Assembly (NCBI GenBank): GCA_965223945.1
Contig: CBDCXW010000008.1
Span: 422,485 to 486,484, forward strand
Source: Dehalococcoidia bacterium
Lineage (GTDB): Bacteria; Chloroflexota; Dehalococcoidia; Lucifugimonadales; CATQGZ01
Length of the DNA: 64,000 nt
Direction: 5' to 3'
Positions 9,915 to 60,184 of this stretch are shown piece by piece (the stretch's first letter is position 1; each line of letters begins with the position of its first letter). Below the pieces are notes generated by a model. It was not told the origin of the DNA. It was given only the letters and a program-made list of their open reading frames with translations, and ran no database searches. Position numbers and translations under genes: made by a program.

Positions 9915-10091
9915 AGCCGTGTCCTGCTACACCCCTCCAAGGATAACGCGGCCATTCTAACAGACTGTGCCGAGGGAGAGTCAGGCTCTCTTATCGAGGG
10001 ACACGGGGCCACTTCCTAGGTCTCTTTCAGTGAAAAGTGTCGCAAACTGTTGGATTTCTGTTGGATTCAGCTTTGGGCGTCGCCGACGTAC

Positions 10092-10164
10092 GCAACGGTT
10101 CTGCCACGTATATGCCGCACTTGTGCAACGGGTCCGCGACAGCGACACAACAGTATTGCAACGG
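10092..10164. repeat. Three direct GCAACGG(T/G) repeats at exact 33-bp spacing
   Basis: Copies at 10092, 10125 and 10158. Flanked by tandem CTGTTGGATT x2 (10047, 10058) and GTGTTGAAYGG x2 (10317, 10329). Confidence 0.7.
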
Positions 10165-10369
10165 TACCCACGGCGGCGCCTTCAGCGCTGGTGGGGCTGT
10201 CTGTGTTCGGGTTGAGCATGGGGTTCATTGTACGAACACCAGTTCGGCACGTCAAGGGGGTTGGGCGCTCACGCGGACCCACTTTCATGGCGGACAGGCA
10301 GGCAGACGAGGACACAGGTGTTGAACGGAGTGTTGAATGGTGAAGTGACGGTGGGCTGAGGGCGACTCA

Positions 10370-11409: not shown

Positions 11410-11517
11410 GCTGTGTCTACTCCTTGGGCTTCGTCTGTATATAGGGATGGGCGTAGCAGAGAAGGCTGACTCTTAGATACAGAATGCCACAAGAGGGACC
11501 TGCGGCATGCAGCCGGC

Positions 11518-12360
11518 TCAGGTTCTCGGCGGCCCTTCGGCGATCCATGCCTTCACGTCGGCCACAGCGCCCAAATTGGGGCCGATGGGAGCCGCGTACC
11601 AGGTTGCCCCGACCTCCGCGTATGCCGCCGCCGTGTCGTCCAGCCTCGTTCGGTCAAGGCCCAGCAGGGCCCCCGCGGCCACGACGTCGAACGAGCCCAT
11701 ATCGCCACGGTGCTCGCCGACGTATTCGACGATAGCCTTCATTATATCCGGCGTCATGGCATTGACTTCGCCCTTCCAGTAGATCGGGTAGACGCCGTCC
11801 CAACGGGCCGCCCTGCGCAGCGGCGCTTTATTGGGCCACTGTCCGCCCGCCCAGATGGGAATCCTGGGCCGCTGCACGGGCTGGGGCAGGAACCACGCGC
11901 CATCGACGCGGAAGTGCTCTCCCTGGTACGAGAACGGCTCGCCCGACCACAGCCCTGTAAGCACTTCCAGGCCCTCGTCGAGCTTCGCCGCGCGGGTCCT
12001 GAGCGCCCCATCCTCGCCGAACCTCTCGTACTCTGAATCGGCAGGCTCGCCGAGCCCCACGCCCAGGGTGAGCCTGCCGCCCGACAGGCGGTCCACCGAG
12101 ACGGTCTCGCGCGCCAGCTTCCAGGGCCGCCGCCGGGGAATCGGGGTAACCGCGGTGCCGATGCGGATCCTCTCCGTCCTCGCCGCCATGACAGACAGGG
12201 CCACCCAGGGGTCGACGATGGGCTGCATCCCGTCTATGGACAGGTGGTCCCAGATGAAGAAGCCGTCCCAGCCGGACTGCTCGGCCAGGTGTGCCAGCTC
12301 GCCGAGGAGCCGGGGGTCCGAATAGTCGCCGGAGATCGGCGAGTCGATGGCGTATAGCAA
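11518..12360 (-). CDS. LLM-class (luciferase-like) flavin/F420-dependent oxidoreductase
   Basis: 280 aa with GWDGFFIWDH, RLTLGVGLG and other typical LLM TIM-barrel motifs. Confidence 0.8.
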   Translation of the reverse strand: MLYAIDSPISGDYSDPRLLGELAHLAEQSGWDGFFIWDHLSIDGMQPIVDPWVALSVMAARTERIRIGTAVTPIPRRRPWKLARETVSVDRLSGGRLTLGVGLGEPADSEYERFGEDGALRTRAAKLDEGLEVLTGLWSGEPFSYQGEHFRVDGAWFLPQPVQRPRIPIWAGGQWPNKAPLRRAARWDGVYPIYWKGEVNAMTPDIMKAIVEYVGEHRGDMGSFDVVAAGALLGLDRTRLDDTAAAYAEVGATWYAAPIGPNLGAVADVKAWIAEGPPRT

Positions 12361-14860: not shown

Positions 14861-15138
14861 ATGATCAGAACCTTCCGCCATCGAGGCCTGAAGCGACTCT
14901 ATGAGCGGGATGACCCTAGTAGAGTGGGGGCTGACTTGGCGAATCGGATCGCTCTAGCTCTAGCGGACCTTGATGATGCCAGTAAGCTTGGGGACATCGC
15001 TTTGCCAGGGTACAGACTTCACCCTTTCAAGGGTGATATGAAGGGGCTATGGAGATCTCGATTTCCTGCAACTGGCGGATCACGTTCTGGTTCGAGGGCG
15101 GCGACGTGCACGATGTCGACCTGGTCGACTATCACTAG
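14861..15138 (+). pseudogene. higB: HigB (RelE/ParE-superfamily killer) toxin with a -1 frameshift near 15051-15053
   Basis: [14 protein letters not shown]...[17 protein letters not shown] then shifts. The native C-terminus [28 protein letters not shown] is readable in the -1 frame and ends at TAG 15136-15138. The site is a GG run that would be GGG in an intact gene. Confidence 0.8.
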
Positions 15139-15154
15139 TGAGAGGATGAGGACT

Positions 15155-15451
15155 ATGGCTATGAAGAATCCGCCACATCCTGGACGCAGCATCAAGGAGA
15201 ACTGCCTGGACCCCCTTGGCCTGACCGTCACAGAGGCCGCCAAGGTGCTTGGCGTGGCTCGGCACACACTCTCGCGCGTAGTGAACGGCCATGCCGCTGT
15301 CTCGCCTGAGATGGCGATTCGTCTTGAAAAGGCCGGTTGGTCCGATGCTGAGTTCTGGCTGAGACGACAGACTTCATACAATCTGGCACAGGCGCGCAGG
15401 AGTGACGATCAGATAAGAGTCGAACGGTACCAGCCACGGCCTACGACTTAG
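15155..15451 (+). CDS. higA: HigA antitoxin (XRE-type HTH)
   Basis: [45 protein letters not shown].... SD GAGAGGA lies upstream of ATG 15155. Confidence 0.9.
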
Positions 15452-17164
15452 CCCGAATCCACCGAAGGAGGGCGTCGGGTCAGTGTCCTGAAGCGGCAAG
15501 AGGGTGCTCCTGTGAATCTGGGATAATGGTTTTGAAACAGCAAAGCCGACCCCAGAACAAGGAGCACCCGATAGATGCTAGCACGCAACCATCCCGACCG
15601 CATCCGTATCGCCTTCGACGACCACCGCCTGGTGGCCAATGCTGGGCTGCTCCTCCCGGTGACCCTAGCCCAGCACCTGGGCCTGCGTGAAGTCGTCGAC
15701 AGCCACGTCGACCTGGGAGACGCGCCGGGGCGAGCGAACCCAGGAGACAAGATGCTGACCCTGGTGGCCTCGGCGCTGGCTGGGGGCGACTTCATTGACG
15801 ACGCCGACGTGTTGCGTACCGGCGGGACAGCTGGCGCCATCGGCTGCGTAGTCAAGGCGCCATCCACCCTGGGAACTTTCCTGCGCAGCTTCCGGTGGGG
15901 CCACGTCCGCCAGTTGGATCGGGTGAGCCGGGAGTTGCTGTCCCGGGCCTGGGCCGCTGGTGCGGGACCCGGCGAAGGGCCGTTGACCATCGACTTGGAC
16001 TCCACCATGTGCGAGACCTACGGACTGGCCAAGGAGGGGGCGCGTCACCATGGTTACACTGGCCAGCGGGGCTATCACCCGCTGCTGGCCATCGCCGCCG
16101 GCACCGGCGACGTGCTGATGTCTCGGCTGCGCGAGGGCCGCGCCAACACCGTTCGGGGCGCCGCCCACTTCCTGCGGGAGACCGTGGGCCGGGTGCGCCA
16201 TGCTGGGGCTACAGGACAACTCACGGTGCGGGCCGACAGCGGCTTCTATGCCCACGCCCTGGTCGTCGTCTGCCGCAAGATGGATGTCCGCTTCTCCATC
16301 ACCATCCGCCAACACGCCCGCCTCAGGGAGTTGATTGAGGCGATTCCCGAGGAGGACTGGACGCCCGTCCCCTACTGGATGGACGGCGGCGCCGACGTGG
16401 CCGAGACCACCTACACTCCCTTCCAGGGTGAGCCCGAAGCCGCCCCAGTGCGGCTCATCGTCCGGCGGGTGAAGCCCACGCCCGGTTCCCAACTGGCCCT
16501 CTTCGCCAGCTACAGCTATCACGGCTTCATCACCGACCGGGACGGGGAAACCCTGGAACTGGAGGCCGACCATCGCCGCCACGCCGAGATTGAGAATGCT
16601 ATCCGAGACCTCAAGCACGGCGTCGGCCTCAACCATCTCCCCTCGGGCCGCTTCCCCGCCAACGGCGCATGGCTGGCCGTCCAGGTGCTGGCCCATAACC
16701 TGGCCCGCTGGACCGCGCGCATCGGTCTGGACGAGGGGGTGGTGACCACCAAGACCCTCCGGCGGCGCTTCTTCTCCCTGGCCGGACGGCTCACCCGCTC
16801 GGCCCGCCGCCTCACTTTGCATCTGCCACAGGGCTGGCCTTGGGAAACCCAGTTCACTCGCGCGCTGGCTCGATTGCGAGCCCTGCCATTGCCTGCCTGA
16901 CGGCACCGACGGCGCCTGACACGTCCACCAGACTACCCAACCGACCCACAGAGTCGCACCGGCCCGGTCCGCGATTGTCTTCCCCTGCATGCTGTCCCGC
17001 CGACCCCGCCCCAGCGCCGCTGCCCAGGACCGCCATCGGCGCCCCCAACGACAACCAAAGGCCGCCACCGGCCCCATTTATCGGAATCGAGCGCGGACCG
17101 TCGCGTCCCACGGCCCTCACCCCTTGTTCCAACCCCAAGGCCGCTCCGCATCGGTGGATTCGGG
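15452..17164 (+). mobile_element. Intact IS1380-family insertion sequence (1713 bp)
   Basis: Perfect 14-bp terminal inverted repeats: CCCGAATCCACCGA (15452-15465) and TCGGTGGATTCGGG (17151-17164). Flanked by a 5-bp direct repeat CTTAG (15447-15451 and 17165-17169). Confidence 0.9.
15575..16900 (+). CDS. IS1380-family DDE transposase
   Basis: 441 aa. N-terminus FDDHRLVANAGLLLPVTLAQHLGL; C-terminus HAEIENAIRDLKHGVGLNHLPSGRFPANGAWL, typical of IS1380. Confidence 0.9.
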   Translation: MLARNHPDRIRIAFDDHRLVANAGLLLPVTLAQHLGLREVVDSHVDLGDAPGRANPGDKMLTLVASALAGGDFIDDADVLRTGGTAGAIGCVVKAPSTLGTFLRSFRWGHVRQLDRVSRELLSRAWAAGAGPGEGPLTIDLDSTMCETYGLAKEGARHHGYTGQRGYHPLLAIAAGTGDVLMSRLREGRANTVRGAAHFLRETVGRVRHAGATGQLTVRADSGFYAHALVVVCRKMDVRFSITIRQHARLRELIEAIPEEDWTPVPYWMDGGADVAETTYTPFQGEPEAAPVRLIVRRVKPTPGSQLALFASYSYHGFITDRDGETLELEADHRRHAEIENAIRDLKHGVGLNHLPSGRFPANGAWLAVQVLAHNLARWTARIGLDEGVVTTKTLRRRFFSLAGRLTRSARRLTLHLPQGWPWETQFTRALARLRALPLPA

Positions 17165-17242
17165 CTTAGGGAACCGTAGCAGGCAGGATAGACGAGGGGT
17201 AACCAATCAGACCGTCGCAGTCGCAGACTGTCGGGATGGAGA

Positions 17243-17595
17243 TGGTGGAGACGGGGGAGGGTCGAACTCCCCGTCCAGAAGACGCTCGGCGAGGATATGC
17301 TACAGGCTTAGCTGGTACTTGGTTTCTCGCTCCCGGCGGTCCCTACCAGCAAGGCCCGCCGAGGGCCAGCCGATGAGTCTTTGGCCCGCCACCCTATCGG
17401 CGTCAGTCGGGCCGCACCTCGATTTGCGTCGCCCAGCCGCCTCCTTCGAGGAGAGGAGACGGTGAACGTGGCCGCCTAGGCGGCCAGGGCTAGCTCGTTG
17501 TTGCCAGCTATTGTTTTGCCACCTTTTTACGAGGTGTGATGGCGCCTCGGCCTGCAATCCTGCGGAGACATCCCCTGTCGAACCCACGCGTCCCC
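17243..17595 (-). ncRNA. ssrA: tmRNA (SsrA)
   Basis: 5' GGGGACG pairs with 3' CGUCUCC-A-CCA, including the G3:U alanine identity pair. T-arm GGGAG-UUCGACC-CUCCC. The internal tag ORF (17476-17520) ends ...NNELALAA-UAG. Confidence 0.9.
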
Positions 17596-44757: not shown

Positions 44758-44881
44758 CCCGCAGGGGTCATAGCCCTTCAGGCCGCATGAGCAAAGCCAC
44801 GACAGGAACGGGTTGAAAACCTTGATCGCTTACCGAACATCGGAAGGTAGACCGTATGAATCGGGTATCAAGCCGCGTGGA

Positions 44882-45790
44882 CTAAACTACGTCCAGAAGT
44901 GGCCCATAGAGTTCCGGGAGCCGTTTCAGATACATAGGGTGGTGAAGGTCAATCTGCACGTCCGGTACGTCGCTATAACCTGGCTCGACGTCACCAGGAT
45001 CGAAGACGACGTGCTCGACCTCACAAATCAACCTGCCCAGAGACTGAATCCTGGGATGTGTCCTAATGTCGATGTTCCTAACAGCCCGCTGGAATGCTTT
45101 GCTCTTGCTGTCGAACTTGGAGTTTAGCTCTTCAAGTTCTCGCTCTAGATCTCGCTGCGTCTTCCTCTTATCTGCTCGCACGCTCCGATAATCCCATAGT
45201 AGCCGGAGGGCTTCTGTCCTCGGTTTCATGCCAAGCCCTAGGAGAATGAGCGCCAGCGGTAGCGCTAATACCGTCATGGCAGCCCAGCGACCTAATGACC
45301 TAGCGGTCGGGCCTGAGACCTCCTTGTTCAATTCTTCCGATGCTCGTCTTCTCTTCAATTCCAAACTCTCTAGGGCAACCTCACCAGCCTGAACCAAGCT
45401 TTCTCTAGCCGCCTCGAATTGACCTACGAACTCCTGCTTTAGCTCTCGTCCTAAGTGCTCTGGATCGTAGTTGACAGCCCTAGCTGACAATACTTCGAAC
45501 TTCGGCCTCACGAACATGCCGGACTTCAGGTCGTCGAGTATCTCGTCAAGTCGAAATACGAGGGCGTAATCTTCGGGGCTAGGCCCGGTGGGCAACATGA
45601 ACACGGGCACTGGGCATTCGGGGAAGACCTTGTCCACAGCATTCCTTGAACTGGCCTGGGTCTGTTCGAGCACTGCTTCCAGTGCCCCTTTAGATACCTT
45701 TCTTATTTGTCGGGCGGCTTCGGAAGTATCCCGAGATTTGTCTACCACCGAGTCTCGGATTCTCTTCAAGGCTTTAGGTCGATCCATCAT
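44882..45790 (-). CDS. Hypothetical protein with central TM helix and coiled-coil-like flanks (low-GC islet)
   Basis: 302 aa. TM segment AAMTVLALPLALILLGLGM. No family recognised. GC is visibly lower than in the flanks. Confidence 0.55.
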   Translation of the reverse strand: MMDRPKALKRIRDSVVDKSRDTSEAARQIRKVSKGALEAVLEQTQASSRNAVDKVFPECPVPVFMLPTGPSPEDYALVFRLDEILDDLKSGMFVRPKFEVLSARAVNYDPEHLGRELKQEFVGQFEAARESLVQAGEVALESLELKRRRASEELNKEVSGPTARSLGRWAAMTVLALPLALILLGLGMKPRTEALRLLWDYRSVRADKRKTQRDLERELEELNSKFDSKSKAFQRAVRNIDIRTHPRIQSLGRLICEVEHVVFDPGDVEPGYSDVPDVQIDLHHPMYLKRLPELYGPLLDVV

Positions 45791-45906
45791 CTGCTCTCAG
45801 CGTTGCCCGTATGCACTCAGTAAGACCCTTCATGTGGTCGACAGCCCAATTGTCTCTCCCGAATACTCTAGCCGGCCGTGGCTGACTGCGCCTCTGTAAG
45901 CCTCAA

Positions 45907-48388: not shown

Positions 48389-48417
48389 TTGACAAAGCAA
48401 ACAACAGTTCGCATAAT
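48389..48417 (+). promoter_or_regulatory. Strong sigma70-like promoter TTGACA-N17-CATAAT
   Basis: Perfect -35, 5/6 -10 and a 17-nt spacer, about 330 nt upstream of the next plus-strand CDS start (48756). Confidence 0.5.
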
Positions 48418-48556
48418 GGTGAGAGTCACCCCACAACGCCAAGGCTGGCCCCGTAGCCCGACAGTGATGAATGGGACAAATGGGGCAAAATGGAACAATT
48501 TCACGGAAAATCGCGGCCCCGCCCCGAACGAAAAGGCCCCGATTAGCTACGAATCC

Positions 48557-48642
48557 AACTGTTCCATATCAACCCAAAACTGTTCCTAATCCTCCCATAA
48601 CTGGTCCTTGACCTTACCGAAACGGTCCTCCCTATGTCCACG
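48557..48642 (+). repeat. Four phased direct repeats AAC(T)G(T/G)TCC at a 21-22-bp period
   Basis: Copies start at 48557, 48578, 48599 and 48621. The first two 9-mers are identical (AACTGTTCC). Confidence 0.7.
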
Positions 48643-48755
48643 CCGCAGCCCCGCCCCGGAAGGACGCCGGTCAGTTCCCCGTTTTGCTCCACTAGGCAAG
48701 AGGTCTTCCCCGGCCTGCTAGAATGGGCGGCGAAACGACTTGCGGAGGACGGGAC

Positions 48756-51203: not shown

Positions 51204-51229
51204 GGAAGGTTGTTCGTTGCCGAGCGGCG

Positions 51230-51258
51230 TTGGAATGGGCGGGCACTTGGCGTATGAT
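51230..51258 (+). promoter_or_regulatory. Putative promoter of the HEPN-DUF499 gene
   Basis: TTGGAA-N17-TATGAT, 42 nt upstream of ATG 51300. Confidence 0.4.
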
Positions 51259-51299
51259 ACCCGCGTTTTGGGGGACACCACGCTGGGGGTCGGCTCGGA

Positions 51300-54200
51300 A
51301 TGACCACGGTAGAACGCCCGAACAACGATGCGCTCACCCAAGCGGTCAATATCTACCGGGACGCAATGCGCCCATTCATCGTGCGCTGTCTCAGGCAGGT
51401 TCGCGGCAGCAAAGCCGATGACCTGATTCGCGGGGCCCTTCGCGACCGTCAAGCCGAAGACTTCGACTCCAGACTCAAGTGGCATAGTGGCAACGTCGAG
51501 GCGTCCATAGATGTCGACGACTTCCCGACAATCATCCAGAAGCTCTGGAGACTGGCTTTCGAGAGGCAGCTCGCAGAAGACCGGACTATACTCAACCGCT
51601 TCTGGCTGGTGAAGGCCGCACGCGATCAGGTTTCTCACCCCGGCGCCACAGACCTGCAGACGGCCGACACAGTCAACCACCTATACCAGATATCGACAGT
51701 CCTGCGCCAGATCAGCGCGCCTCAGGAGGCAGACGCGGTTCAGTCCATAAGCGACAAGGTCCAGCGCCCCGAGCAGACAGGCGGAGTCACTTCGCCGCCG
51801 GACCTGCCCATGGCCGACCTCGGCAAGCCCGAGCCGCCGCGGACCAATGGCAGCCTCGCACCCTGGAGGAACGTGATTCGACCCAACGTCGACGTTGCCC
51901 ATGGAACGTCGCAGGAAGCCGAGTTCGCGGCAGATCTGCAACAAGTGAAGGACGGGCGCGCCAGCGCCACGAGCTACGGTGACCCTGTGAAGTTCTTCGG
52001 CCAGACCTACGTCACGTCCGGGCTCAAGACGCTGCTGGTCAACGTGCTGAGCAGGATCGGCGGTACCGGCGGCGACCCTGTCATACAGACCAAGACCGGC
52101 TTCGGCGGCGGCAAGACGCACAGCCTGATCGCGCTGTACCATCTGGTCGAGAGCGTTAGCGCCCTGGTCAACGCCCCGGAGCAGGGCGGCGACTCCCGCG
52201 CCAGCTCGGAGATAAGGAAAATAATCGGTGAGGCCGGGCTCGACCCCGACGCGGTTCCCGAAGCCCGCATTGCCGTGATAGTCGGCACCTTCCACGCTCC
52301 GACCGACGTGGACACGACAGCCGGCGGCGATCCGCTCAACACCCTGTGGGGCCTGATGGCACACCAGTTGGGCGGACAGGACGGTTACGACATTATTGGA
52401 GAGGCTGCCCGGCAGGATACCGCGCCCAGCGGAAGACAGCTCGACGCTCTGTTCGAGCGCGTTGGCCCTTGTGTGATACTCATCGACGAGCTGGTAGCCT
52501 ACGTCCGCAACGTCCCTGGAGCGGCCGTCGATTCCATATACACGTTCGTTCAGACCCTAACGGAGTCGGTCCGACGCAGCAAGAACGCGGCGCTGGTGGT
52601 GACCCTGCCACAGAGCGACATTGAGGCCGGTGGCGAAGCCGGAGTCCAGGCGCTCGCCAGACTCGACCACATCCTGGGACGGATCGAGTCCGTGTGGCAG
52701 CCTCTGGAAGTCAACGAGACCTTTGAGGTCGTGCGCCGCCGCCTCTTCGAAAGCGCGATAGATGAGTCCGAGCGTGACCGCACATGTGAAGCGTTCGCCA
52801 GAATGTACTCCTCCTATCGGCGCGAGTATCCGCAGGGCGCCGGCGAATCCCAATACCTGCAACGCATGAAGGCCTGCTATCCGATACATCCTGAGATATT
52901 CGACCGGCTCTATTCGGACTGGTCGTCGATCCCACAGTTCCAGCGCACGCGCGGCGTGCTGCGGATGATGGCAAACTGCGTCAGCCGCCTCTATCTCAGC
53001 AATGACCCCTCGCCCCTGATCATGCCCGCGACTCTGCCACTCGACGACCCTGCGTTTGCCAACGAGTTCATCAGGCTGTTGCCCGGACAGTGGGACGCCG
53101 TGATCTCTGAAGTGGACAGCGATAGCTCCCGTACGGACGAAATCGACAGGTCGAACCCCCGGACGTTTGGCGACGTCGGCGGCGCCGCCCGACGCATAGC
53201 CCGAACGATATTCCTGGGCAGCGCGCCCGCTGGAGCCGTGAGGGGAATCGACGGTAGACAGATACATCTTGGCGTGGTGCAGCCCGGCCATGGGGTGTCC
53301 GCGTACAACGACGCGCTTGGCCGTATGTCCGGTGAGCTGTACTATCTGTACAGCGCCGGGGACAGACACTTCTTCAACGCCGAGCCGAACCTGAACCGTC
53401 TCGCCGCCGACCGCGCGGTCGCTCTGAGCGACGCCGATGTCACCCACCACGTCGTCGAACGCCTTGAGGAGGCGCGGGGAAGAAGGCAGGATGTTATCTC
53501 ATGTCCAGGAGACTCCGCCGACGTTCCCGACACAGACTCCGTGCGGCTGATCATCATCCCGCCGGACAGAACGCTCCCCACACGCTCGTCGGAGTCCGAC
53601 TTGGCGACCGATACCGCCTTGAGGCTGCTGACCGAACGGGGCGACGCCGGACGCACCCACAGGAACATGTTGCTGTTCCTCGCCGCCAAGTCAGACGAGG
53701 TACGCAATCTTAAGAGTGCGGTCAGAAGGCGGCTGGCATGGCACTCGATTCTCAACGGCGCCGACCGGGTTGAGAGCTTGTCAGGCGAGAGGGTGCGCCA
53801 AGCGAACGACAGCCTTCGGGCAGCTGATTCGGACGTGCGGAACGGTCTTGTAAGCGCCTACCGATGGGCGCTGTGGCCCGTGCAGGACGACCCGCAAAAT
53901 GATGAGTACAGCTTCAGGCAGGAGGTCACGGATCCGGCGGACACGGGCGACATCGTCTGGGGCGCATTCGAGAAGTTCGCTGAGAACGAGGCTTTGGTAA
54001 ACGGGATCACACCGGCGGCGCTCGCCACCATGCTGTCCCGGTACGTCTGGACCAACCAGGCATACCGGGATCACGTCAAAGTCGAAACGCTGTGGAGAAT
54101 GTTGACATCCAACGTCTACATGCACAGGCTCAAGAACCGATCGGTGCTCGAAACGTGCATCGATCAGGGTGTGACCGACGGCGCATTCGGCATCGCGGGG

Positions 54201-54683
54201 GGATACTCGGAGTCGGAAGGCAAGTACGCCGACTTGCGATTCAAGGAGTCACTAGACCCCGGCCTGTTGGGCATATCGGGCCTATCGGGTCGTCTGCTCA
54301 TAACTCCGGACATGGCGGAGCTGGTGAGGCAAGAATCCAGGCCGGAAACGACCACGACGCAGGACTGGGAAACGGACACGGGGAACGGTCCCGACGATCA
54401 GCACGGCCAGACACTACCTGATGATACGGAAGATCCGCCGACACCGACCCAGCCAGCGGGACCGAGAAGAATACTCGCCACCAAAACGTTCCAGGGCGAC
54501 CTGTCACTGGACGCCGTCGGTCAGCTTCGAGACGAAATCATCCGCAACCTGAACCACGATGGAGGCAGCGTGACCGTACAAATAACCATATCAGCGGAGA
54601 AGTCGGACGGATTCTCCGCTGGAATCACGCGGTCGGTGCGGGAAAACGGCCAGCAGCTCGGGCTGGACCTCTCATTCGACTAG
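51300..54683 (+). CDS. Swt1-like HEPN domain fused to DUF499-type P-loop ATPase (1127 aa)
   Basis: N-terminus AVNIYRDAMRPFIVRCL...ARDQVSH (Rx4H at aa 108-113). DUF499 signature APWRNVIRPNVDVAHG...AEFAADLQQV. Walker A GFGGGKTH (52098-52118). Walker B VILIDELVAY. Confidence 0.85.
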   Translation: MTTVERPNNDALTQAVNIYRDAMRPFIVRCLRQVRGSKADDLIRGALRDRQAEDFDSRLKWHSGNVEASIDVDDFPTIIQKLWRLAFERQLAEDRTILNRFWLVKAARDQVSHPGATDLQTADTVNHLYQISTVLRQISAPQEADAVQSISDKVQRPEQTGGVTSPPDLPMADLGKPEPPRTNGSLAPWRNVIRPNVDVAHGTSQEAEFAADLQQVKDGRASATSYGDPVKFFGQTYVTSGLKTLLVNVLSRIGGTGGDPVIQTKTGFGGGKTHSLIALYHLVESVSALVNAPEQGGDSRASSEIRKIIGEAGLDPDAVPEARIAVIVGTFHAPTDVDTTAGGDPLNTLWGLMAHQLGGQDGYDIIGEAARQDTAPSGRQLDALFERVGPCVILIDELVAYVRNVPGAAVDSIYTFVQTLTESVRRSKNAALVVTLPQSDIEAGGEAGVQALARLDHILGRIESVWQPLEVNETFEVVRRRLFESAIDESERDRTCEAFARMYSSYRREYPQGAGESQYLQRMKACYPIHPEIFDRLYSDWSSIPQFQRTRGVLRMMANCVSRLYLSNDPSPLIMPATLPLDDPAFANEFIRLLPGQWDAVISEVDSDSSRTDEIDRSNPRTFGDVGGAARRIARTIFLGSAPAGAVRGIDGRQIHLGVVQPGHGVSAYNDALGRMSGELYYLYSAGDRHFFNAEPNLNRLAADRAVALSDADVTHHVVERLEEARGRRQDVISCPGDSADVPDTDSVRLIIIPPDRTLPTRSSESDLATDTALRLLTERGDAGRTHRNMLLFLAAKSDEVRNLKSAVRRRLAWHSILNGADRVESLSGERVRQANDSLRAADSDVRNGLVSAYRWALWPVQDDPQNDEYSFRQEVTDPADTGDIVWGAFEKFAENEALVNGITPAALATMLSRYVWTNQAYRDHVKVETLWRMLTSNVYMHRLKNRSVLETCIDQGVTDGAFGIAGGYSESEGKYADLRFKESLDPGLLGISGLSGRLLITPDMAELVRQESRPETTTTQDWETDTGNGPDDQHGQTLPDDTEDPPTPTQPAGPRRILATKTFQGDLSLDAVGQLRDEIIRNLNHDGGSVTVQITISAEKSDGFSAGITRSVRENGQQLGLDLSFD

Positions 54684-54812
54684 GGGATGCCGACGACCTG
54701 CTTGACACAATGTCACGGGGAATAATGCCGATGCGCTGCCGGGCGTCTGGACCGCACATATACGCCATCGGCCAACCTAATCTATCAGTAGCGTAGGAAC
54801 GAAAACAGGCCC

Positions 54813-57594
54813 GTGACTACCGACGTACCCCGCAAGAAGCTCATAGAAGTCGATCTGCCCCTCGACGATATCAACCGCGAGTCAGCCCGCGAGAAGTCCA
54901 TCAGGCACGGACACCCATCCACCCTCCACCTATGGTGGGCCCGTCGACCTCTCGCAGCCTGCCGGGCAGTCATCTTCGCCAGTATGGTGGACGACCCATC
55001 CTCATGCCCCGAGTTCCGAACACCCGAGGCCCGGGATACTGAGCGTGAGCGACTCCACGACATCATCAAGCGGCTCGTGGTGTGGGAGAACGGCAATGAC
55101 GAGACCATGTTGGCCGAGGCCCGGTACGAGATTGCACGCTCCGTGGCGAGGTCGTGCGGCGAGACGGCCCCCACCGAGCCGGACGATGTGCTGCGCTACC
55201 TGAACGACAAGGCCCTGCCCGTCTACGACCCCTTCTGTGGCGGCGGCTCCATACCCCTGGAGGCACAGCGCCTCGGCCTGCGGGCCGTCGGCTCCGACCT
55301 CAACCCCATCGCCGTCCTCATCACCAAGGCCCTTATAGAGCTGCCGCCAAGGTTCAGAAACATGCCACCCGTCAATCCCGAAGCCGACCCGATGGGCATG
55401 ACGACGGGCAAGGGCATGAAGAAGAAGCAGGTGCCCTGGCGCGGCACAGCAGGACTCGCCGCCGACATCCGCTACTACGGGCGCTGGATGCGCGAGGAGG
55501 CGTTCAAGCGCGTCGGGCACCTCTACCCGAAGGCCAGGCTGCCCGACGGAAGCGAGGCCGCCGTCATCGCCTGGCTCTGGGCCCGCACCGTCCCATGCCC
55601 GAACCCCGCCTGCGGCATCGCCATGCCGCTCATGCGGACATTCCAGGTGTCGAAGAAGGGCAGCGGGCATAGAACCAGGCCGGTCGTGGACAGGGGCGCG
55701 AAGTCCGCCTCCTTCGTCGTGGAGCGCTACGACGAAGGCGTGGACGAAGGCGGCACCGTCAACCGCAACGGCGCGAAGTGCGTCGCCTGCGGCAGCGCGA
55801 CCCCGCTCGCTTACGTCCGCGAGCAGGCCAGGGCCGGCAGAATGGGCGAGCAGATGACCGCCATAGTCGCCGAGGGCGACCGCAGGCGCATCTTCCTGTC
55901 TCCCACCGACGAGCACGTCCAGACCGCGCTGAAGGCCAAACCTGGGTGGCGGCCTGCTGGCAGGCTGCCGGAGCAGGCGTTGGGTTTCAGGGTGCAGCGA
56001 TATGGGTTCACCCAGTGGCGCCAGCTTTTCACCGAAAGGCAACTGGTTGCGCTCACTACCTTCAGCGACCTGATGCCCGATGTTCGTTCCCTGATACTTG
56101 AACACGGATCGTCAACGGAGTACGCCGATGCCGTGGAAACGTACCTCGCGCTTGCTGTTGGCAGAGAAGCAGACATGTGTTCCAGCTTTAATAGATGGCA
56201 CAACTCCGGTGACTTTGTCACCGGAGTTTTCGGCCGTCAGGCCATTCCCATAATCTGGGATTTTGCAGAATCCAATCCGCTCTCCAACTCGACCGGAAAC
56301 TGGATGGCACATGTCGAGTGGGTTGCCAAGGTTGTCGATAAGCTGCCCATTGAAGCTTCTGGCGGGGAAGTGCATCAGGCAGACGCTTCCACTACGATAC
56401 ATGCAGTGAATGGCCCGGTAATCGTTACTGGCCCCCCCTACTATGACAACATCGGCTATGCTGACTTGTCAGACTTCTTCTACGTGTGGCTCCGCCCGCT
56501 GCTCCGTGACATCTACCCCGACCTGTTCTCCGGCATACTTGTCCCTAAAGACGAGGAGATGATTGCCACCCCGTTCCGGTTCAAGAATTCTCGACAGAGG
56601 TTTGAGGACTTGCTGAACAAGACACTGCGGCTGATACGCGAACGCTGTTCGCCTGAGTTCCCATCGTCCATCTTCTACGCCTACAAGCAGCAGCAGGAGG
56701 AGCGAGAGGGCAGGACCTCCTCCGGCTGGGAGACGATGCTGACCGCGCTGGTGAACGCGGGCTTCCGTATAATCGGCACTTGGCCGATGCGAACAGAGAT
56801 GTCAGTGCGCTCCAATGCTATGGCTGCCAACGCTCTCGCCTCGTCCGTCGTGCTCGTCTGCCGCCCACGTCCCGACGACGCGCCCGTCGCGACGCGGCGG
56901 CAATTTCTCGACGCGCTCGACAAAAGAGATGCCGGACAGGCTGGACCGCCTTACGCGGGAGAGTCACATCGCGCCGGTGGACCTGGCGCAGGCCGCCATC
57001 GGCCCCGGCATGGAGATATACTCGCGCTACGGACGTGTCGAGACGATAGGCGGCGAGCCGGTTCCGGTGCGGGAGGCGCTGGCTGCCATCAACAGGGCCA
57101 TCGACGACTACTCGGCGCGTCAGGAGGGCGATCTGGACTCCGAGTCCCGCTTCTGCCTCGCCTGGCTGAAGCAGCGCGGGTTTGCGGAAGGGCCCTACGG
57201 CGAGGCCGAGACGCTGGCACAGGCCAGGAACGTCGCCGTGGGGGAGCTGGGCCGCCTGCTGGTTGCGGAACGGGGCAACGTAAGGCTGCTGCCGATCAGC
57301 GCTTACGGTGAGGGTCGCCCACCTTCGTTCGGCATGACCGCGTGGGAGGGCTGCTTCCGCATGGCCTACCACTTCTTCGAGCGCGAGCGGGGCCACACCG
57401 TGGAGGGAGCGGCGCAGGTTGCCGGTGCAATGCGAGGAGGCGTCGATTCGGTCGAGCGTCTGGCGCGGATTCTCTACAACCACTTCGACCGGAGGAACGA
57501 CTCCGCGAACGCGGTGGCGTTCAACAGCCTGGTGACTTCGTGGAACGCCGTCATCGCGAAGGCTCAGAAAGAAGAGCAGGGCGGGTTGCTTTGA
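54813..57594 (+). CDS. DUF1156-family Zn-ribbon DNA methyltransferase, interrupted by a +1 frameshift at the A-run 56922-56925
   Basis: DUF1156 N-terminus LIEVDLPLDDINRESAREKSIRHGHPSTLHLWWARRPLAACRA. Motif I DPFCGGGS. Zn ribbon CPNPAC...CVAC. Motif IV reads GPPYYD. The conserved C-terminus (IAPVDLAQAAIGPGMEIYSRY...) continues in the +1 frame (ORF 56815..57594). GTG start. Confidence 0.85.
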
Positions 57595-57980
57595 CCGGCG
57601 GCGACTCCCACGAAGGCACGTCCACGTCGCTGCTCTCTCTGATGTACCGGCTGGAGCGCGAGTTGCGCCCGTTCAACAGCGCGGAGGTGAGGCAGCTACC
57701 CGAGAACCGCTTCGGCGTGTACGCGCTTTGGCTGCCAACTGGAATGGAGAACGCGCCTGAGTGCCTGTATGTCGGCGTCTCCACCACCTGTATCAGGAGG
57801 CGCCTGTTCGATCACCTCTTGCGCGAGAAGAACCCGATGCTCCGCACAGAGCTGCGGCTGTTCCGCGATAGTGTGCTGTTTTCGGTCGCGTTCACGTCTG
57901 AAGAGCAGGAGACCTTCGACCTGGAGACGGCGGTTATCCGGGAGTGGAAGCCGAGGACGAACCGTGCCAAGCTGGCATAG
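57591..57980 (+). CDS. Small GIY-YIG nuclease
   Basis: GVYALW-x13-LYVGVSTTCIRRRLFDHL...FDLETAVIREWKPRTN (GIY, YxG, Arg, Glu and Asn in canonical order). TTG 57591 overlaps the methyltransferase stop (TTGA). An alternative ATG is at 57642. Confidence 0.75.
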   Translation: MTGGDSHEGTSTSLLSLMYRLERELRPFNSAEVRQLPENRFGVYALWLPTGMENAPECLYVGVSTTCIRRRLFDHLLREKNPMLRTELRLFRDSVLFSVAFTSEEQETFDLETAVIREWKPRTNRAKLA

Positions 57981-57987
57981 ACACCCC

Positions 57988-58016
57988 TTGACAACACGAA
58001 CATACGTCCGTATAAT
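57988..58016 (+). promoter_or_regulatory. Perfect consensus sigma70 promoter TTGACA-N17-TATAAT
   Basis: 12/12 consensus positions with the optimal 17-nt spacer, 8 nt after the GIY-YIG stop. Confidence 0.6.
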
Positions 58017-58022
58017 TCCCTC

Positions 58023-58190
58023 ATGCACTACCCTTGCCGCGCCGGAGAGCCTGTCGCAACATCGCCGCGGAACCGCCGCGCCTCTATTGCATTCACGTTG
58101 CACAGTCGCCGCAAATCCGCTGCAAGAACCGGAACACTCAGCTACGAGATCCAACAAAAATACAACAGTTTGCAGCAATTTCGCCGCTAA
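58023..58190 (+). other. Candidate leaderless 55-aa basic ORF or about 170-nt ncRNA downstream of the consensus promoter
   Basis: ATG at 58023 lies 7 nt after the -10 (the expected transcription start). The ORF is MHYPCRAGEPVATSPRNRRASIAFTLHSRRKSAARTGTLSYEIQQKYNSLQQFRR*. The region also holds three GCAnnnTCGCCGC-like repeats in different codon phases. Confidence 0.3.
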
Positions 58191-60184
58191 CCCCTCGCCC
58201 GGAGCGCCTCCTCGAGGCCTGGGACCTGCTCCACGCCCGTAGGGACATCTATCGACGAGCCTTCGAAGTCGCCCCCGACCGGCTCGAATCGACCGCCCAG
58301 GTGCTCCGCCAGGAACGCTTCCGCGACGGCGGTGAACGAGATGTCGTTCTCGGGCCTACCGAAGCCGTGCCCTTCGTCAGGGTAGACGAGATAGGTCACG
58401 GGTATGCCCTTCTCCTTCATGGCGTCGACGATCTGGTCCGACTCGGCCCGTTTGACCCGCGCGTCGTTCGCCCCGTGGCCTATCAGCAGAGGCTTGATGA
58501 TGCGGTCCACGTGCGTCAGAGGCGACCGTTCGATTAGGAGCGCCCGGCCCCCTTCGGTCCTGGAGTCGCCAACGCGGGTCGCCTCCATCTCGATTGCCGG
58601 CTTCCAGTAGGGCGGGATAGTCTCTACCATCGTGATCAGGTTGGACGGCCCGACGAGGTCCACCCCGCAGGTGAAGACATCGGGCGTCATTGTGAGGCCG
58701 GCGAGAACGGCGTAGCCGCCGTAGCTGGCGCCCACGATCGCGACGCGCTCGGGATCGGCAATGCCCTCGGCGACGGCCCACTCCACCGCGTCGACCAGGT
58801 CGTCCTGCATCTTCCCGCCCCACTCCAGGTTGGCCGCGTTCATGAAGCCCTTGCCAAGCCCGCTGGACCCCCGGAAGTTGACGCTGAGCACGGCGTAGCC
58901 CCGGTTGGCGAGGTGCTGATGGATTGGATCGTAACCCCAGTCGTCCCGGCCCCACGGCCCTCCGTGGACGTTCAGCACCATCGGCAGCGGCCCCTGTCTC
59001 TCGCCGATGGGGAGCGTGTAGTAGCAGACCATTTCGAGCCCGTCGCGGCTATTGAACACCACCGGACGCATCCGGGCCAGCGGGAGCCCCTCTAGGTCGG
59101 AACGGTTCGTGAAGAGAAAGTCTGCTCTTCCCGCGTTGCGGTCGTACCGGTAGTATCGAACGGGCCCGTCGTCGACGAGGTACGCGACTATCCATGTCCT
59201 GTCGTCGAGAGTCCGGCTGACAACCTCGATGTCGCCGTCCGCCACCGAGCTGAGGCTCTCGAAGTCGGCGGCGATGCCGTCGTCGACCACCTGCCATCGC
59301 TTGCGCTCGTAGGTGAACGCCACGGCCTGGACATCGTTATCTGCCGGGTGGAGCATCACGTCGCTCACGTCGACCCTCGGGTCCACTGCGATGACGGTCT
59401 CCTCGCCAGTGTCGAGGTCGATGGCCGACATGGCGGAGGTGTCCCGGCCCCGGCTGTCGATCATGTACAGCGCGCCGCCCGTCTTGTCGAAGTCGAAGGG
59501 CATCGTCGTGAGAAGGTCTTCCATCTCCACCTTCATGAACGGCCGCCAGGAGCCCTCTCCGTCGAGCATGAGCAGGTCGCTGCCGCCGTCCGGAGTGATC
59601 CGGGCGCCCAGCCGGACCCGGTAGTCATCATCGATCAAGAGCTCGGCGAAGTCGTCGTTCCTCTGGATCAGCGTTCTCTCCGCCGTCAGGATGTCGACCC
59701 TGTACAGGTCGTGGTATGCGGGGTCGCGGTCATTGAGCCCGACGACTATCTCCTGTGGGGACCTGTGGCTGGCGCCCTGGATCTGCGCGTGGACGCCTTC
59801 CAGCGGGGTGAGGTCTATGGTCGTCCCCGCGTCGAGGTCGACCGAGTAGACGTGCCAGTCCTCATCCCCGGCCCTGTCCTGGAGGTACAGCACGTGCCGG
59901 GAGGTGTATGCCCAGAAGTAGATGCGGATGCCCCTCTCGCGGTCTTCGGTGACTGGACTCGCGGCCTTCGGATCGTCCGCAGGCCCCACCCAGACGTTGA
60001 GGACGCCGTCCACCGGGGCGAGGAAGGCCAGGCGGGCACCATCCGGGCTGATCTGCGGCGAGGTCCTGTCAGGATTCCCGAACAGAACCCGGCGGGGGAT
60101 TATAGGTATGGTCTCGCTACGAGACGTCCTATCGTGCTGCATCCTCTTGTGTCCTGACCGATGACGGTTGTGGGGTGGATTCAC
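58187..60184 (-). CDS. S9-family serine peptidase (prolyl oligopeptidase/acylaminoacyl-peptidase type)
   Basis: An N-terminal beta-propeller region and a C-terminal alpha/beta hydrolase with GASYGGY (GxSxGG). GTG start overlaps the upstream stop (GTGA). Confidence 0.9.
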   Translation of the reverse strand: MNPPHNRHRSGHKRMQHDRTSRSETIPIIPRRVLFGNPDRTSPQISPDGARLAFLAPVDGVLNVWVGPADDPKAASPVTEDRERGIRIYFWAYTSRHVLYLQDRAGDEDWHVYSVDLDAGTTIDLTPLEGVHAQIQGASHRSPQEIVVGLNDRDPAYHDLYRVDILTAERTLIQRNDDFAELLIDDDYRVRLGARITPDGGSDLLMLDGEGSWRPFMKVEMEDLLTTMPFDFDKTGGALYMIDSRGRDTSAMSAIDLDTGEETVIAVDPRVDVSDVMLHPADNDVQAVAFTYERKRWQVVDDGIAADFESLSSVADGDIEVVSRTLDDRTWIVAYLVDDGPVRYYRYDRNAGRADFLFTNRSDLEGLPLARMRPVVFNSRDGLEMVCYYTLPIGERQGPLPMVLNVHGGPWGRDDWGYDPIHQHLANRGYAVLSVNFRGSSGLGKGFMNAANLEWGGKMQDDLVDAVEWAVAEGIADPERVAIVGASYGGYAVLAGLTMTPDVFTCGVDLVGPSNLITMVETIPPYWKPAIEMEATRVGDSRTEGGRALLIERSPLTHVDRIIKPLLIGHGANDARVKRAESDQIVDAMKEKGIPVTYLVYPDEGHGFGRPENDISFTAVAEAFLAEHLGGRFEPVGGDFEGSSIDVPTGVEQVPGLEEALRARG

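What the first reader, a model, noticed from the sequence alone, without database searches (positions are those of the whole stretch)
57988..58190. Perfect consensus promoter (TTGACA-17-TATAAT) driving a leaderless 55-aa arginine-rich ORF or a repeat-containing ncRNA at the end of the defence island
A 12/12 consensus promoter is very unexpected by chance in a high-GC genome. It sits 8 nt after the GIY-YIG stop. The expected transcription start coincides with an ATG (58023), which opens a 55-aa, strongly basic ORF. The stop of that ORF overlaps the convergent peptidase stop. The same stretch contains GCAACATCGCCGC (58056), GCACAGTCGCCGC (58100) and GCAGCAATTTCGCCGC (58172). These lie in different codon phases, which favours an RNA- or DNA-level function. 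Candidates include a regulatory or antitoxin-like RNA for the adjacent nucleases, or protein-binding sites. The transcript would run antisense into the S9 peptidase 3' end unless it is terminated.
Basis: seen in the sequence. Interest (0 to 1): 0.6.

Follow-up and report, generated by a model that had tools for sequence, protein, structure and literature searches.

The report
Orphan copy of repeat-built small-RNA unit
The perfect promoter is real, but what it drives looks like one copy of an undescribed, lineage-specific family of about 200-bp non-coding transcription units also found next to ordinary metabolic genes, not a peptide gene or a regulator of the neighbouring defence genes.

Summary
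The promoter is beyond chance (0 of 200 shuffles).

The element (57988-58181, "A") is not unique. A paralogue B lies at 10255-10033 (-). A more divergent copy C lies at 48389-48586 (+). Relatives carry further copies: el1 and el2 in L156/L157, and two in L159.

Shared features:
- a near-consensus promoter with CATG at +1;
- a C>G-skewed, weakly structured body with 11-nt periodicity (L159 has nine clean tandem 11-mers);
- an AGCTACGA box, 123 nt after the -10 in A and 122/124 nt in el1;
- an A/T-rich tail.

Reading frames are broken by 1-2-nt indels between homologues. Yet el1 is 90% conserved against 68-71% at flanking third codon positions. The family is therefore constrained and non-coding.

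The other loci (B, C, el1/el2, L159_b and probably L159_a) sit upstream of metabolic genes. The two closest full Hma/GIY-YIG islands lack the element. A does lie inside the strain-specific segment 51204-58181, which replaces a vapBC cassette, and it ends exactly at the junction.

Verdict: a probable small non-coding RNA unit. A defence link is not supported and the function is unknown.

The parts
57988..58016 (+). Sigma-70-type promoter of element A: TTGACA (57988-57993), 17-nt spacer containing CGAAC, TATAAT (58011-58016).
   Evidence: 12/12. (only 12/12 site in 64 kb; 0 of 200 shuffles). The TTGAC(A/G)-N2-4-CGAAC spacer is shared with B, el1 and L159_b.
58023..58181 (+). Predicted non-coding transcript of element A, about 160 nt. 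The start at the A of CATG is inferred. The end is inferred from the family tail and the synteny junction.
   Evidence: C>G skew -0.23 and A>T skew +0.21. MFE z -0.27. No Rfam match. Homology to B and el1 ends at ...CAATTT. Homology to relatives' core genome resumes at 58182.
58050..58135 (+). Body made of decayed units of about 11 nt (yCGyyGCAnnn). The third repeat (58175; 27-nt copy 58172-58198) lies in the tail and runs past the junction at 58181/58182.
   Evidence: Autocorrelation peak at lag 11 (z 3.7, harmonics at 22 and 33). L159 paralogues carry nine clean tandem 11-mers, TGTCGCATAAG / TGTCACAAAAG.
58140..58147 (+). AGCTACGA box, the family hallmark.
   Evidence: 123 nt after the -10 in A and 124/122 nt in el1 of L157/L156. 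Also present in C and in both L159 copies. B-type copies have AGCTGA instead.
58149..58181 (+). A/T-rich 3' block of three 11-nt units: ATCCAACAAAA | ATACAACAGTT | TGCAGCAATTT. It is the best-conserved part of the family and ends at the island/core junction.
   Evidence: 33-nt match to 10066-10034, E 8.5e-5. (ACAGTTT invariant in six sequences).
58108..58176 (+). Candidate long-range helix, GCCGCAAA (58108-58115) with TTTGCAGC (58169-58176). It encloses the box and is followed by AAUUU.
   Evidence: 97.6% of cells paired in six sequences, three pairs with changes on both sides, 1 of 500 shuffles as good, slid controls 29-40%. Not supported thermodynamically.
58023..58190 (+). 55-codon leaderless ORF. 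Judged not to be a conserved gene.
10033..10255 (-). Paralogue B: TTGACG-17-TACAAT (10255-10227), ATG at 10219, AGCTGA at 10072-10067, 3' block at 10066-10033. It lies upstream of the Amidohydro_2 gene 9159-9914 (-).
   Evidence: Orthologous el2 in L156/L157/L158 (nhmmer E 1e-23 to 5e-25).
48389..48586 (+). Divergent family member C: TTGACA-17-CATAAT (11/12), three 10-nt units at 48470-48499, AGCTACGA at 48545-48552, tail ...AACTGTTCC. It lies upstream of the dimethylglycine-dehydrogenase-like gene.
   Evidence: Present in L151/L152 and replaced by unrelated sequence in L153. Not detected by the family HMMs, so homology rests on the box, the promoter and the architecture.
51204..58181 (+). Strain-specific segment that contains A. 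Contents: HmaC-like HEPN+DUF499 ATPase (51300-54683); HmaB-like DUF1156 methyltransferase (about 54984-57594, frameshifted near 56923); GIY-YIG nuclease (57591-57980); then element A.
   Evidence: Relatives L151-L154 carry a vapBC cassette here, and L150 carries a deleted version of it.

Best explanation
Element A (57988-58181) is a complete copy of an undescribed, lineage-specific family of self-contained transcription units of about 200 bp, found in this uncultured, probably Chloroflexota, clade.

Shown:
- Each unit has a near-consensus sigma-70-type promoter.
- The body is C-rich, G-poor and weakly structured, and is built from units of about 11 nt. These are clean tandem arrays in some paralogues and decayed in A.
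- An AGCUACGA box follows, then an A/U-rich tail.
- The family is non-coding but under sequence constraint.
- The family is not tied to the Hma-like defence island.

Inferred:
- Transcription starts at the A of a CATG (58023).
- The transcript is about 160 nt and ends near 58181, either at a helix-plus-U tail or by Rho acting on the C>G-skewed, 11-nt-periodic RNA.
- The RNA acts as a small regulatory or decoy RNA, with the repeated 11-nt units as the working part (for example multivalent binding of a protein or RNA).

A is an orphan paralogue. It sits at the edge of a recombination hotspot and points into the 3' end of the convergent S9 peptidase gene.
For: **Promoter.** It is 12/12 and beyond chance. 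The three best sigma-70 matches in the whole window are exactly A (12/12), C (11/12) and B (10/12).

**Paralogy.**
- A and B align from -35 to tail.
- nhmmer finds only these two in the window (E 7e-53 and 1e-75, by construction).
- It finds el1 and el2 in L156/L157/L158 and L159_b at E 9e-11.

**Fixed architecture.** The -10 to AGCTACGA distance is 123 nt in A and 124/122 nt in el1.

**Periodicity.** Lag 11 is the top autocorrelation lag in A (z 3.7), B (4.5) and L159_a/b (about 7), and is a close second to lag 21 in el1 (3.4 against 3.6). The 95th percentile of controls is 2.98. L159 copies carry nine tandem 11-mers.

**Strand asymmetry.** All nine members have C>G and A>T skew on the promoter strand, with MFE z between -1.8 and +1.0.

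**Constraint without coding.**
- el1 of L156 and L157 is 90.2% identical over 164 nt, with three 1-nt indels.
- Third codon positions of the flanking genes are 68-71% identical, with no indels.
- L159_a and L159_b share their 5' sequence but differ by a 2-nt indel.
- ORFs differ in frame, length and stop position.

**No link to the island.**
- L001 and L002 have GIY-YIG at 75-76% aa identity and full HmaC/HmaB. They lack the element.
- The other copies lie upstream of Amidohydro_2, dimethylglycine dehydrogenase, Aminotran_3 and probably purL.

**Candidate 3' helix.** It shows covariation.

**Rho geometry.** Rho's primary binding sites accept YC dimers with 9-13-nt linkers, a period of about 11 nt, in C>G-skewed unstructured RNA (PMC6144790).
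Against: - There is no expression data, so the start, the end and transcription itself are inferred.
- A has no orthologue, so constraint is shown for its paralogue class (el1), not for A. A could be a decaying orphan.
- No canonical intrinsic terminator is present.
- Overall folding is no better than shuffles.
- The helix rests on six sequences from three subfamilies and was predicted from the same alignment.
- The ATG at +1 is kept in five of six subfamilies.
- A permutation test gives weak frame-specific conservation in the ATG frame: p about 0.017 for el1 and 0.08 for B. Some translation cannot be excluded.
- The other loci (B, C, el1/el2, L159_b and probably L159_a) are co-directional with a downstream gene. 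This fits a cis-acting promoter or leader role as well as a trans-acting RNA.
- C is not recovered by the family HMMs.
- The family was seen only in the window and in about 170 kb from relatives.
Confidence: 0.6

Rival explanations
1. Cis-acting promoter or leader module (a 'mobile promoter', possibly a leader-peptide/Rho attenuator). The unit supplies a strong extra promoter, with a short leaderless ORF followed by a rut-like repeat array, to whatever gene lies downstream. A is a stranded copy with no gene to drive.
For: - B, C, el1/el2 and L159_b (and probably L159_a) lie upstream of, and co-directional with, non-homologous metabolic genes. This is the defining situation of putative mobile promoters (PMC3488235).
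- Presence varies between close relatives: C is absent in L153, el1/el2 are absent at that site in L159 and L155, and L159_b is at another intergenic site.
- CATG sits at +1 and short ORFs end near the box in B and in el1 of L157.
- The body is C>G-skewed with 11-nt periodicity.
Against: - The downstream genes keep their own conserved proximal promoter (...CTG(A/T)TAGAAT...). It is present even in L159, where no element lies upstream of Amidohydro_2.
- Paralogue identity (about 40-64%) is far below the 80% used to define mobile promoters.
- No terminal inverted repeats or target-site duplications were seen at the C or A boundaries.
- ORF stop positions are not conserved.
Confidence: 0.2
2. DNA-level element. 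The 11-bp-phased repeats and phased A/T tracts form a protein-binding array or an intrinsically bent segment, such as a nucleoid-protein or regulator docking site, and transcription is incidental.
For: - An 11-bp period is close to one helical turn.
- The tail consists of phased A/T tracts, rare in a genome of 63-65% G+C.
- The CGAAC motif in the promoter spacers could be an operator.
Against: - Unit sequences differ between paralogues (TGTCGCATAAG, TGGAACA, TCCAACA, ATGGGACAA), so a single sequence-specific protein is unlikely.
- Every copy keeps a strong promoter in the same orientation relative to the array, with the same strand skew.
- In el1 the transcribed part (90%) is better conserved than the promoter region (78%).
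Confidence: 0.08
3. Leaderless small-protein gene: the 55-aa basic peptide, with 34-50-aa counterparts in the paralogues.
For: - An ATG lies exactly at the predicted start in A, B, el1 and both L159 copies.
- Fewer substitutions fall at codon position 2 in B versus el2: 13/2/10 and 9/5/11 at positions 1, 2 and 3.
- The permutation test favours the ATG frame: p 0.017 for el1 and 0.08 for B.
- Leaderless genes exist in Chloroflexi, although they are a minority (PMC3160421).
Against: - Indels of 1 and 2 nt occur between orthologues and paralogues inside the ORFs, while 12 kb of flanking genes have none.
- Tandem 11-nt units, not a multiple of three, lie inside the ORFs.
- The peptides share no motif, and the stops fall before the conserved block in B and el1 but after it in A.
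- No Pfam or PADLOC hit.
- Only spurious hits among 1.84 billion representative proteins.
- The ORF length is what chance gives.
Confidence: 0.07
4. Component of the defence island: a regulatory or antitoxin-like RNA for the HEPN/GIY-YIG nucleases, or the island's recombination end or outward-facing promoter.
For: - A lies inside the strain-specific segment 51204-58181 and ends exactly at its right junction.
- It starts 7 nt after the GIY-YIG stop.
- Repeat-built antitoxin RNAs exist in type III toxin-antitoxin systems (my knowledge).
Against: - The closest homologous islands (L001, L002) lack it.
- Its paralogues sit at stable, syntenic, non-defence loci.
- Its units are 11 nt and degenerate, not the roughly 35-nt units that lie upstream of a toxin gene.
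- No gene follows on the same strand.
- The segment contains no recombinase or transposase.
- There is no complementarity to island genes above chance.
- The methyltransferase gene is itself frameshifted.
Confidence: 0.05

Closest known systems
Multi-copy bacterial small RNA families with paralogues, sometimes in tandem (for example Qrr1-5, PrrF1/PrrF2, OmrA/OmrB) and repeat-motif decoy RNAs (CsrB/RsmZ, CrcZ). Named from my own knowledge, not tested here.
   Same: - Short independent transcription units with strong promoters in intergenic regions.
- Several diverged paralogues per genome.
- A tandem pair, el1-el2, in relatives.
- A body made of a reiterated short motif.
   Different: - No sequence or structure match to any Rfam family.
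- The motif is not GGA or a CA motif, and it differs between paralogues.
- No stem-loops present the motifs.
- No canonical terminator.
- The binding partner is unknown.
Putative mobile promoters (Matus-Garcia et al. 2012, PMC3488235)
   Same: Homologous promoter-bearing non-coding DNA lies upstream of non-homologous genes, with presence varying between close relatives.
   Different: - Identity between copies is 40-64%, not at least 80% over 50-100 nt.
- The units are about 200 bp with a conserved transcribed part.
- Downstream genes keep their own promoters.
- A itself has no downstream gene.
Rho-utilisation (rut) regions of Rho-dependent terminators and attenuators (PMC6144790)
   Same: C>G-skewed, poorly structured RNA with pyrimidine-C dimers recurring at about 11 nt. 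This matches the YC + N9-13 geometry of Rho's six primary binding sites.
   Different: Natural rut sites are not known as clean tandem 11-mers with their own promoter. Nothing here shows Rho involvement. YC dimers are common in any G+C-rich sequence, so this feature discriminates poorly.
Type III toxin-antitoxin antitoxin RNAs (ToxI-like)
   Same: A strong promoter followed by a repeat-built non-coding RNA near nuclease genes.
   Different: - Units are 11 nt and decayed in A, not about 34-45 nt.
- No toxin gene follows on the same strand.
- Paralogues are not next to toxins.
- No PADLOC hit.

Membership tests
Sigma-70-type (housekeeping) promoter | -35 TTGACA and -10 TATAAT hexamers separated by 16-18 nt. 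| tested here: met
   12/12 with a 17-nt spacer. Unique in the window, and 0 of 200 shuffles reach it.
Sigma-70-type (housekeeping) promoter | Initiates transcription in vivo. | not testable with these tools
   No expression data. Indirect support: the paralogues keep 10-11/12 matches.
Any described RNA family (Rfam 15) | Score at or above the family gathering threshold. | tested here: not met
   Only tmRNA and a tRNA in the window. The best hit in the region is nadA at 14.3 bits against a threshold of 37.5, E 3.6. Nothing at B or at the copies in L156/L157/L159.
Structured non-coding RNA | Conserved secondary structure supported by covariation and stability. | tested here: inconclusive
   One 7-bp helix is 97.6% paired, with three pairs changed on both sides. 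However, MFE z is about 0, the consensus energy is only -9 kcal/mol, and duplex energies are no better than shuffles.
Protein-coding gene (leaderless small protein) | Reading frame, length and peptide conserved among homologues. | tested here: not met
   Frame-breaking indels and different stops. No credible protein homologues. A weak frame signal remains, p 0.017 and 0.08.
Hma (HmaA/B/C) candidate defence system accessory | Co-occurs with homologous HmaB/HmaC(/GIY-YIG) loci. | tested here: not met
   Absent from L001 and L002. L003/L004, which have only the GIY-YIG gene, also lack it. Only two full loci could be examined.
Type III toxin-antitoxin antitoxin RNA | Tandem repeats of about 34-45 nt directly upstream of the toxin gene on the same strand. 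| tested here: not met
   Units are about 11 nt. The next gene is convergent. No PADLOC model hit for the ORF or GIY-YIG.
Putative mobile promoter | At least 80% identity over 50-100 nt, upstream of non-homologous CDSs. | tested here: not met
   Copies are upstream of non-homologous genes. However, identity is 48-64% in the promoter region and 40-50% in the body. A has no downstream CDS.
Transposable element / MITE / island end | Terminal inverted repeats, target-site duplication, near-identical copies, or an adjacent recombinase. | tested here: not met
   No such repeats at the junctions. Copies are strongly diverged. No transposase or integrase in 51204-58181.
Rho-dependent terminator (rut region) | C>G-skewed, unstructured RNA with suitably spaced YC dimers, and dependence on Rho. 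| tested here: inconclusive
   Skew, low structure and 11-nt period are met. Rho dependence cannot be tested here.
CRISPR array | Regular direct repeats of at least 23 nt separated by unique spacers of similar length. | tested here: not met
   Three 27-nt copies at 67-70% identity with spacings of 44 and 75 nt. The true period is 11 nt.

The most novel reading that the evidence does not exclude
The units encode a new class of abundant, unstructured 'repeat-array' RNAs in uncultured Chloroflexota. Their reiterated 11-nt units would load or titrate an oligomeric RNA-binding factor; Rho, whose six primary sites fit a period of about 11 nt, is the obvious candidate. Each unit would then be a tunable decoy or insulator. 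Copies such as A, placed at the edge of a gene-exchange hotspot, would shield neighbouring genes from read-through or modulate termination genome-wide.
Probability: 0.15. Interest if true: 0.6.

Novelty: new member of a known kind. Interest (0 to 1): 0.35.

Why it matters
For the scan, this removes a tempting but unsupported story: a peptide or antitoxin RNA belonging to an Hma-like defence island. It shows instead that the eye-catching promoter belongs to a repeated genomic element.

For biology, it points to an undescribed non-coding family in an uncultured lineage where almost nothing is known about small RNAs. The family has unusually strong promoters and is under sequence constraint. Its architecture is unusual (11-nt repeat arrays, AGCUACGA box, A/U tail) and easy to search for and to test in metatranscriptomes.

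It also documents a recombination hotspot between two core genes. In relatives this site holds a vapBC cassette, and here it holds a partly degraded defence island.

Tried and rejected
- **Rfam, tRNA and tmRNA scans.** These covered the window, the region, B and the relatives' copies. No family matched.
- **BLAST of the 250-nt region against plasmid and phage collections.** Only short chance matches, E at least 0.2.
- **Genome-collection scan with the S9 peptidase.** The best relative was only 65% identical, too distant for intergenic comparison. Closer relatives came from the protein database instead.
- **Metagenome scan with AACANAAATNCAACAGTTTGC.** It gave 65 hits, all in contigs of 34-44% G+C and unrelated to the family. 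Most are one gut-metagenome locus.
- **A as a remnant of the vapBC cassette that relatives carry at this site.** No similarity was found.
- **Antisense target in the island.** No complementarity above chance.
- **Terminal inverted repeats or target duplications.** None were found at the A or C boundaries.
- **RNA duplex energies for a helix around the box.** They were no better than shuffles.
- **Search of 1.84 billion representative proteins with the 55-aa ORF.** Two hits were returned. Their scores are sums over 14-18 weak matches to internal repeats of giant proteins, so they are not homologues.
- **Ideas considered by eye and dropped.**
  - A sigma-54 promoter: the TGGCA-N-TTGC pattern occurs in B only and is not kept in A.
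  - DnaA-box arrays: the 11-mers differ from the reverse of TTATCCACA by an extra base.
  - PUF-type UGUNNNAUA sites in the L159 units: untested speculation.
  - A retron msr.
- **Literature searches for a described equivalent.** None was found.
Full report
**1.

- TTGACA (57988-57993), a 17-nt spacer and TATAAT (58011-58016) form a 12/12 promoter match.
- In a scan of the whole window it is the only 12/12 site. No 12/12 site arose in 200 block-shuffled windows, and sites at 11/12 or better averaged 0.075 per shuffle.
- The -35 begins 7 nt after the GIY-YIG stop.
- An ATG lies 7 nt after the -10. It opens a 55-codon ORF whose TAA overlaps the TAG of the convergent S9 peptidase.
- GCANNNTCGCCGC occurs at 58056, 58100 and 58175, giving 4 matches in the window against 0.46 expected. 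The repeat finder extends these to a 27-nt family of three copies at 67-70% identity.

**2. The surroundings**

- Upstream lie three genes:
  - a HEPN+DUF499 ATPase that matches PADLOC HmaC (E 5e-243);
  - a DUF1156 methyltransferase that matches HmaB (E 7e-239);
  - a GIY-YIG protein.
- Hma is a candidate defence system defined by PADLOC (PMC8565338). No HmaA helicase is present here.
- Homologues of the GIY-YIG protein are 117-149 aa long. The real gene is therefore 57591-57980, with a TTG start that overlaps the HmaB stop.
- The HmaB homologue changes reading frame near 56923.

**3. The element is not unique**

- A blastn search of the region against the window found a 33-nt match on the minus strand at about 10050 (E 8.5e-5).
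- Reading that site showed a full paralogue, B. It has:
  - CCCCTTGAC..CGAAC..GT.CGTA.AAT, a 10/12 promoter;
  - CATG at the start;
  - repeated GTTGCA motifs;
  - the 3' block ATCCAACAGAAATCCAACAGTTTGC.
- A third, more divergent copy, C, has an 11/12 promoter and the string AGCTACGAATCCAAC, almost identical to A's AGCTACGAGATCCAAC.
- A, C and B are the three best sigma-70 matches in the 64 kb.

**4. Relatives and synteny at the A locus**

- Protein searches with the S9 peptidase found relatives at 87-96% aa identity. Their contigs were fetched.
- Nucleotide homology to the window stops exactly at 51203, the stop of the dimethylglycine-dehydrogenase-like gene. It resumes exactly at 58182.
- Between these points L151-L154 carry a vapBC (PIN plus antitoxin) cassette. 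L150 carries an internally deleted version of it.
- Window 51204-58181 is therefore strain-specific. It consists of the Hma-like island plus element A, whose last family-homologous base (…CAATTT, 58181) is the junction.
- A shows no similarity to the vapBC cassette.

**5. The family in relatives**

- Contigs around the Amidohydro_2 gene next to B were fetched.
- L156, L157 and L158 keep B's orthologue, el2 (nhmmer E 1e-23 to 5e-25).
- Directly upstream, in tandem, they have a second unit, el1. It has its own promoter (TTGACGaacaCGAACgtccgtgcTATTAT), a CATG, the AGCTACGA box and the tail TGGAACAACTCTGGAACAGTTTGGAACAAAATTTC.
- The distance from the -10 to the box is 123 nt in A and 124/122 nt in el1.
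- L155, the closest relative at this locus, has an insertion sequence there and lacks B.
- L159, at 74% aa identity, has no unit at that site. It has L159_b between Amidohydro_2 and Aminotran_3 (E 9e-11) and L159_a in the gap before a purL-like gene.
- The two L159 copies carry nine clean tandem 11-nt units each (TGTCGCATAAG and TGTCACAAAAG). These are followed by CTCAGCTACGAAAT and an A/T-rich tail.
- C is present in L151 and L152 but is replaced by unrelated sequence in L153.
- No copy was found in about 1.2 Mb of more distant loci (L001-L084). The one metagenome pattern scan gave only chance hits.

**6. What the family has in common**

- Autocorrelation peaks at lag 11 in A (z 3.7), B (4.5) and L159_a/b (about 7), with harmonics at 22 and 33. 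In el1 lag 11 (3.4) is a close second to lag 21 (3.6). C peaks at lag 10 (3.0). The 95th percentile of random window pieces is 2.98.
- All nine members are C>G- and A>T-skewed on the promoter strand.
- None folds better than shuffles.
- RNAalifold on six sequences gives only -9 kcal/mol.
- One 7-bp helix stands out (GCCGCAAA 58108-58115 with TTTGCAGC 58169-58176). It is paired in 41 of 42 cells, and three pairs have changes on both sides. One of 500 shuffles is as good, and slid controls give 29-40%.
- The helix encloses the box and is followed by A/U-rich sequence with a short U run. This evidence is suggestive only: it rests on three subfamilies, the structure was derived from the same alignment, and duplex energies are not better than shuffles.

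**7. Coding or not**

Against coding:
- el1 of L156 and L157 differ by three 1-nt indels, two of them inside the ORF, while 12 kb of flanking genes show none.
- L159_a and L159_b share 5' nucleotides but differ by a 2-nt indel.
- The tandem units are 11 nt long, not a multiple of three.
- Stops fall before the conserved block in B, el1 and the L159 copies, but after it in A.
- The peptides share no motif.
- The ORF has no Pfam or PADLOC hit.
- It has only two hits among 1.84 billion representative proteins. Both are giant repeat proteins scored over 14-18 weak stretches.

For coding:
- The ATG at +1 is kept.
- A permutation test favours the ATG frame: p 0.017 for el1 and 0.08 for B.

I put coding at about 7%.

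**8. Functional constraint**

- Between L156 and L157 the el1 transcript is 90.2% identical over 164 nt and el2 is 83%. Third codon positions of the flanking genes are 68-71% identical.
- The el1 promoter region is less conserved (78%) than its transcribed part.
- The family is therefore under selection as non-coding sequence, and the pattern leans towards an RNA-level role.
- A itself has no orthologue, so its own constraint cannot be measured.

**9. Relation to the defence island**

- The closest full homologous islands are L001 and L002 (GIY-YIG 76% and 75% identical, with HmaC and HmaB present). They have 35 nt and about 160 nt of unrelated sequence after GIY-YIG. They have no consensus promoter and no family HMM hit.
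- The other family copies sit at non-defence loci.
- A shows no complementarity to island genes above chance.
Only two full homologous islands could be checked, and A does travel inside the strain-specific segment.

**10. Mechanism**

Shown:
- a near-perfect promoter;
- a conserved non-coding unit with a fixed architecture;
- 11-nt periodicity;
- strand skew.

Inferred:
- a leaderless-type start at 58023;
- a transcript of about 160 nt ending near 58181;
- action through the reiterated units.

The period and composition fit the geometry of Rho's primary binding sites: YC plus 9-13-nt linkers in C>G-skewed, unstructured RNA (PMC6144790). This could explain termination without a hairpin terminator, or a decoy role. 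Nothing here tests it.

The main rival is a cis-acting promoter or leader module, in the sense of putative mobile promoters (PMC3488235). The position of the other copies upstream of genes favours it. Against it, those genes have their own conserved proximal promoters (…CTGATAGAAT…), which are present even where no unit lies upstream.

**11. Verdict**

- The ncRNA reading is partly supported.
- The peptide and the defence-regulator readings are not supported.
- The element is a new, lineage-specific member of a known kind: a small non-coding transcription unit or promoter-bearing intergenic repeat. Its function is unknown.

Noticed in passing
window 54984-57594 (frame change near 56923-56924): The HmaB-like DUF1156 methyltransferase is split over two reading frames. 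L001's 867-aa homologue aligns to 54984-56924 in frame 1 and to 56923-57591 in frame 2. This is either a pseudogene or an assembly indel. In L001 it is HmaC that is split instead (800 + 295 aa).
   Followed up: partly
window 51204-58181 versus L150-L154: The gap between the dimethylglycine-dehydrogenase-like gene and the S9 peptidase is an exchange hotspot. Relatives hold a vapBC (PIN + 93-aa) cassette there, and L150 holds a deleted one. The window holds a 7-kb Hma-like island with GIY-YIG but no HmaA helicase.
   Followed up: yes
window 15452-17207, beside the tmRNA gene at 17243-17595 (-): About 1.75 kb absent from relatives L155-L158 lies next to the 3' end of the tmRNA gene. It encodes a DDE_Tnp_1_4 transposase (15575-16900), so it is an insertion sequence at a classic integration spot.
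   Followed up: partly
window 14861-15451 (+): A single 196-aa ORF carries both a HigB-like toxin domain and an HTH_3 antitoxin domain. In L157 these are two separate genes of 92 and 98 aa. This is a possible fusion or a frameshift.
   Followed up: no
window 10179-11526: This stretch has no counterpart in L155-L158. The ORF 10370-11134 (-) matches only the C-terminal half of the adenosine deaminase profile (positions 182-329 of 330), so the gene looks truncated or frameshifted. The same intergenic slot holds an HNH gene in L156 and an IS plus a 414-aa gene in L155.
   Followed up: partly
window 9953-9958 (-) and 48716-48721 (+); L156, L157, L159 upstream of Amidohydro_2: Several metabolic genes share a conserved proximal promoter-like string...CTG(A/T)TAGAATGG..., a short distance before the start codon. 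TAGAAT therefore seems to be a common -10 in this organism. The annotated ATG at 48723 lies inside it, and the real start of the dehydrogenase gene is probably near 48756.
   Followed up: no
window 44760-45880: A low-G+C stretch (51-56%) is absent from L151-L153. It carries a 302-aa ORF (44882-45790, -) with no Pfam match, and is another strain-specific insertion.
   Followed up: no
window 58042-58052 and 58199-58209: An 11-nt direct repeat, CCGGAGAGCCT / CCGGAGCGCCT, has one copy inside element A and the other inside the peptidase coding end. It is probably chance and could not be linked to the junction at 58181/58182.
   Followed up: no
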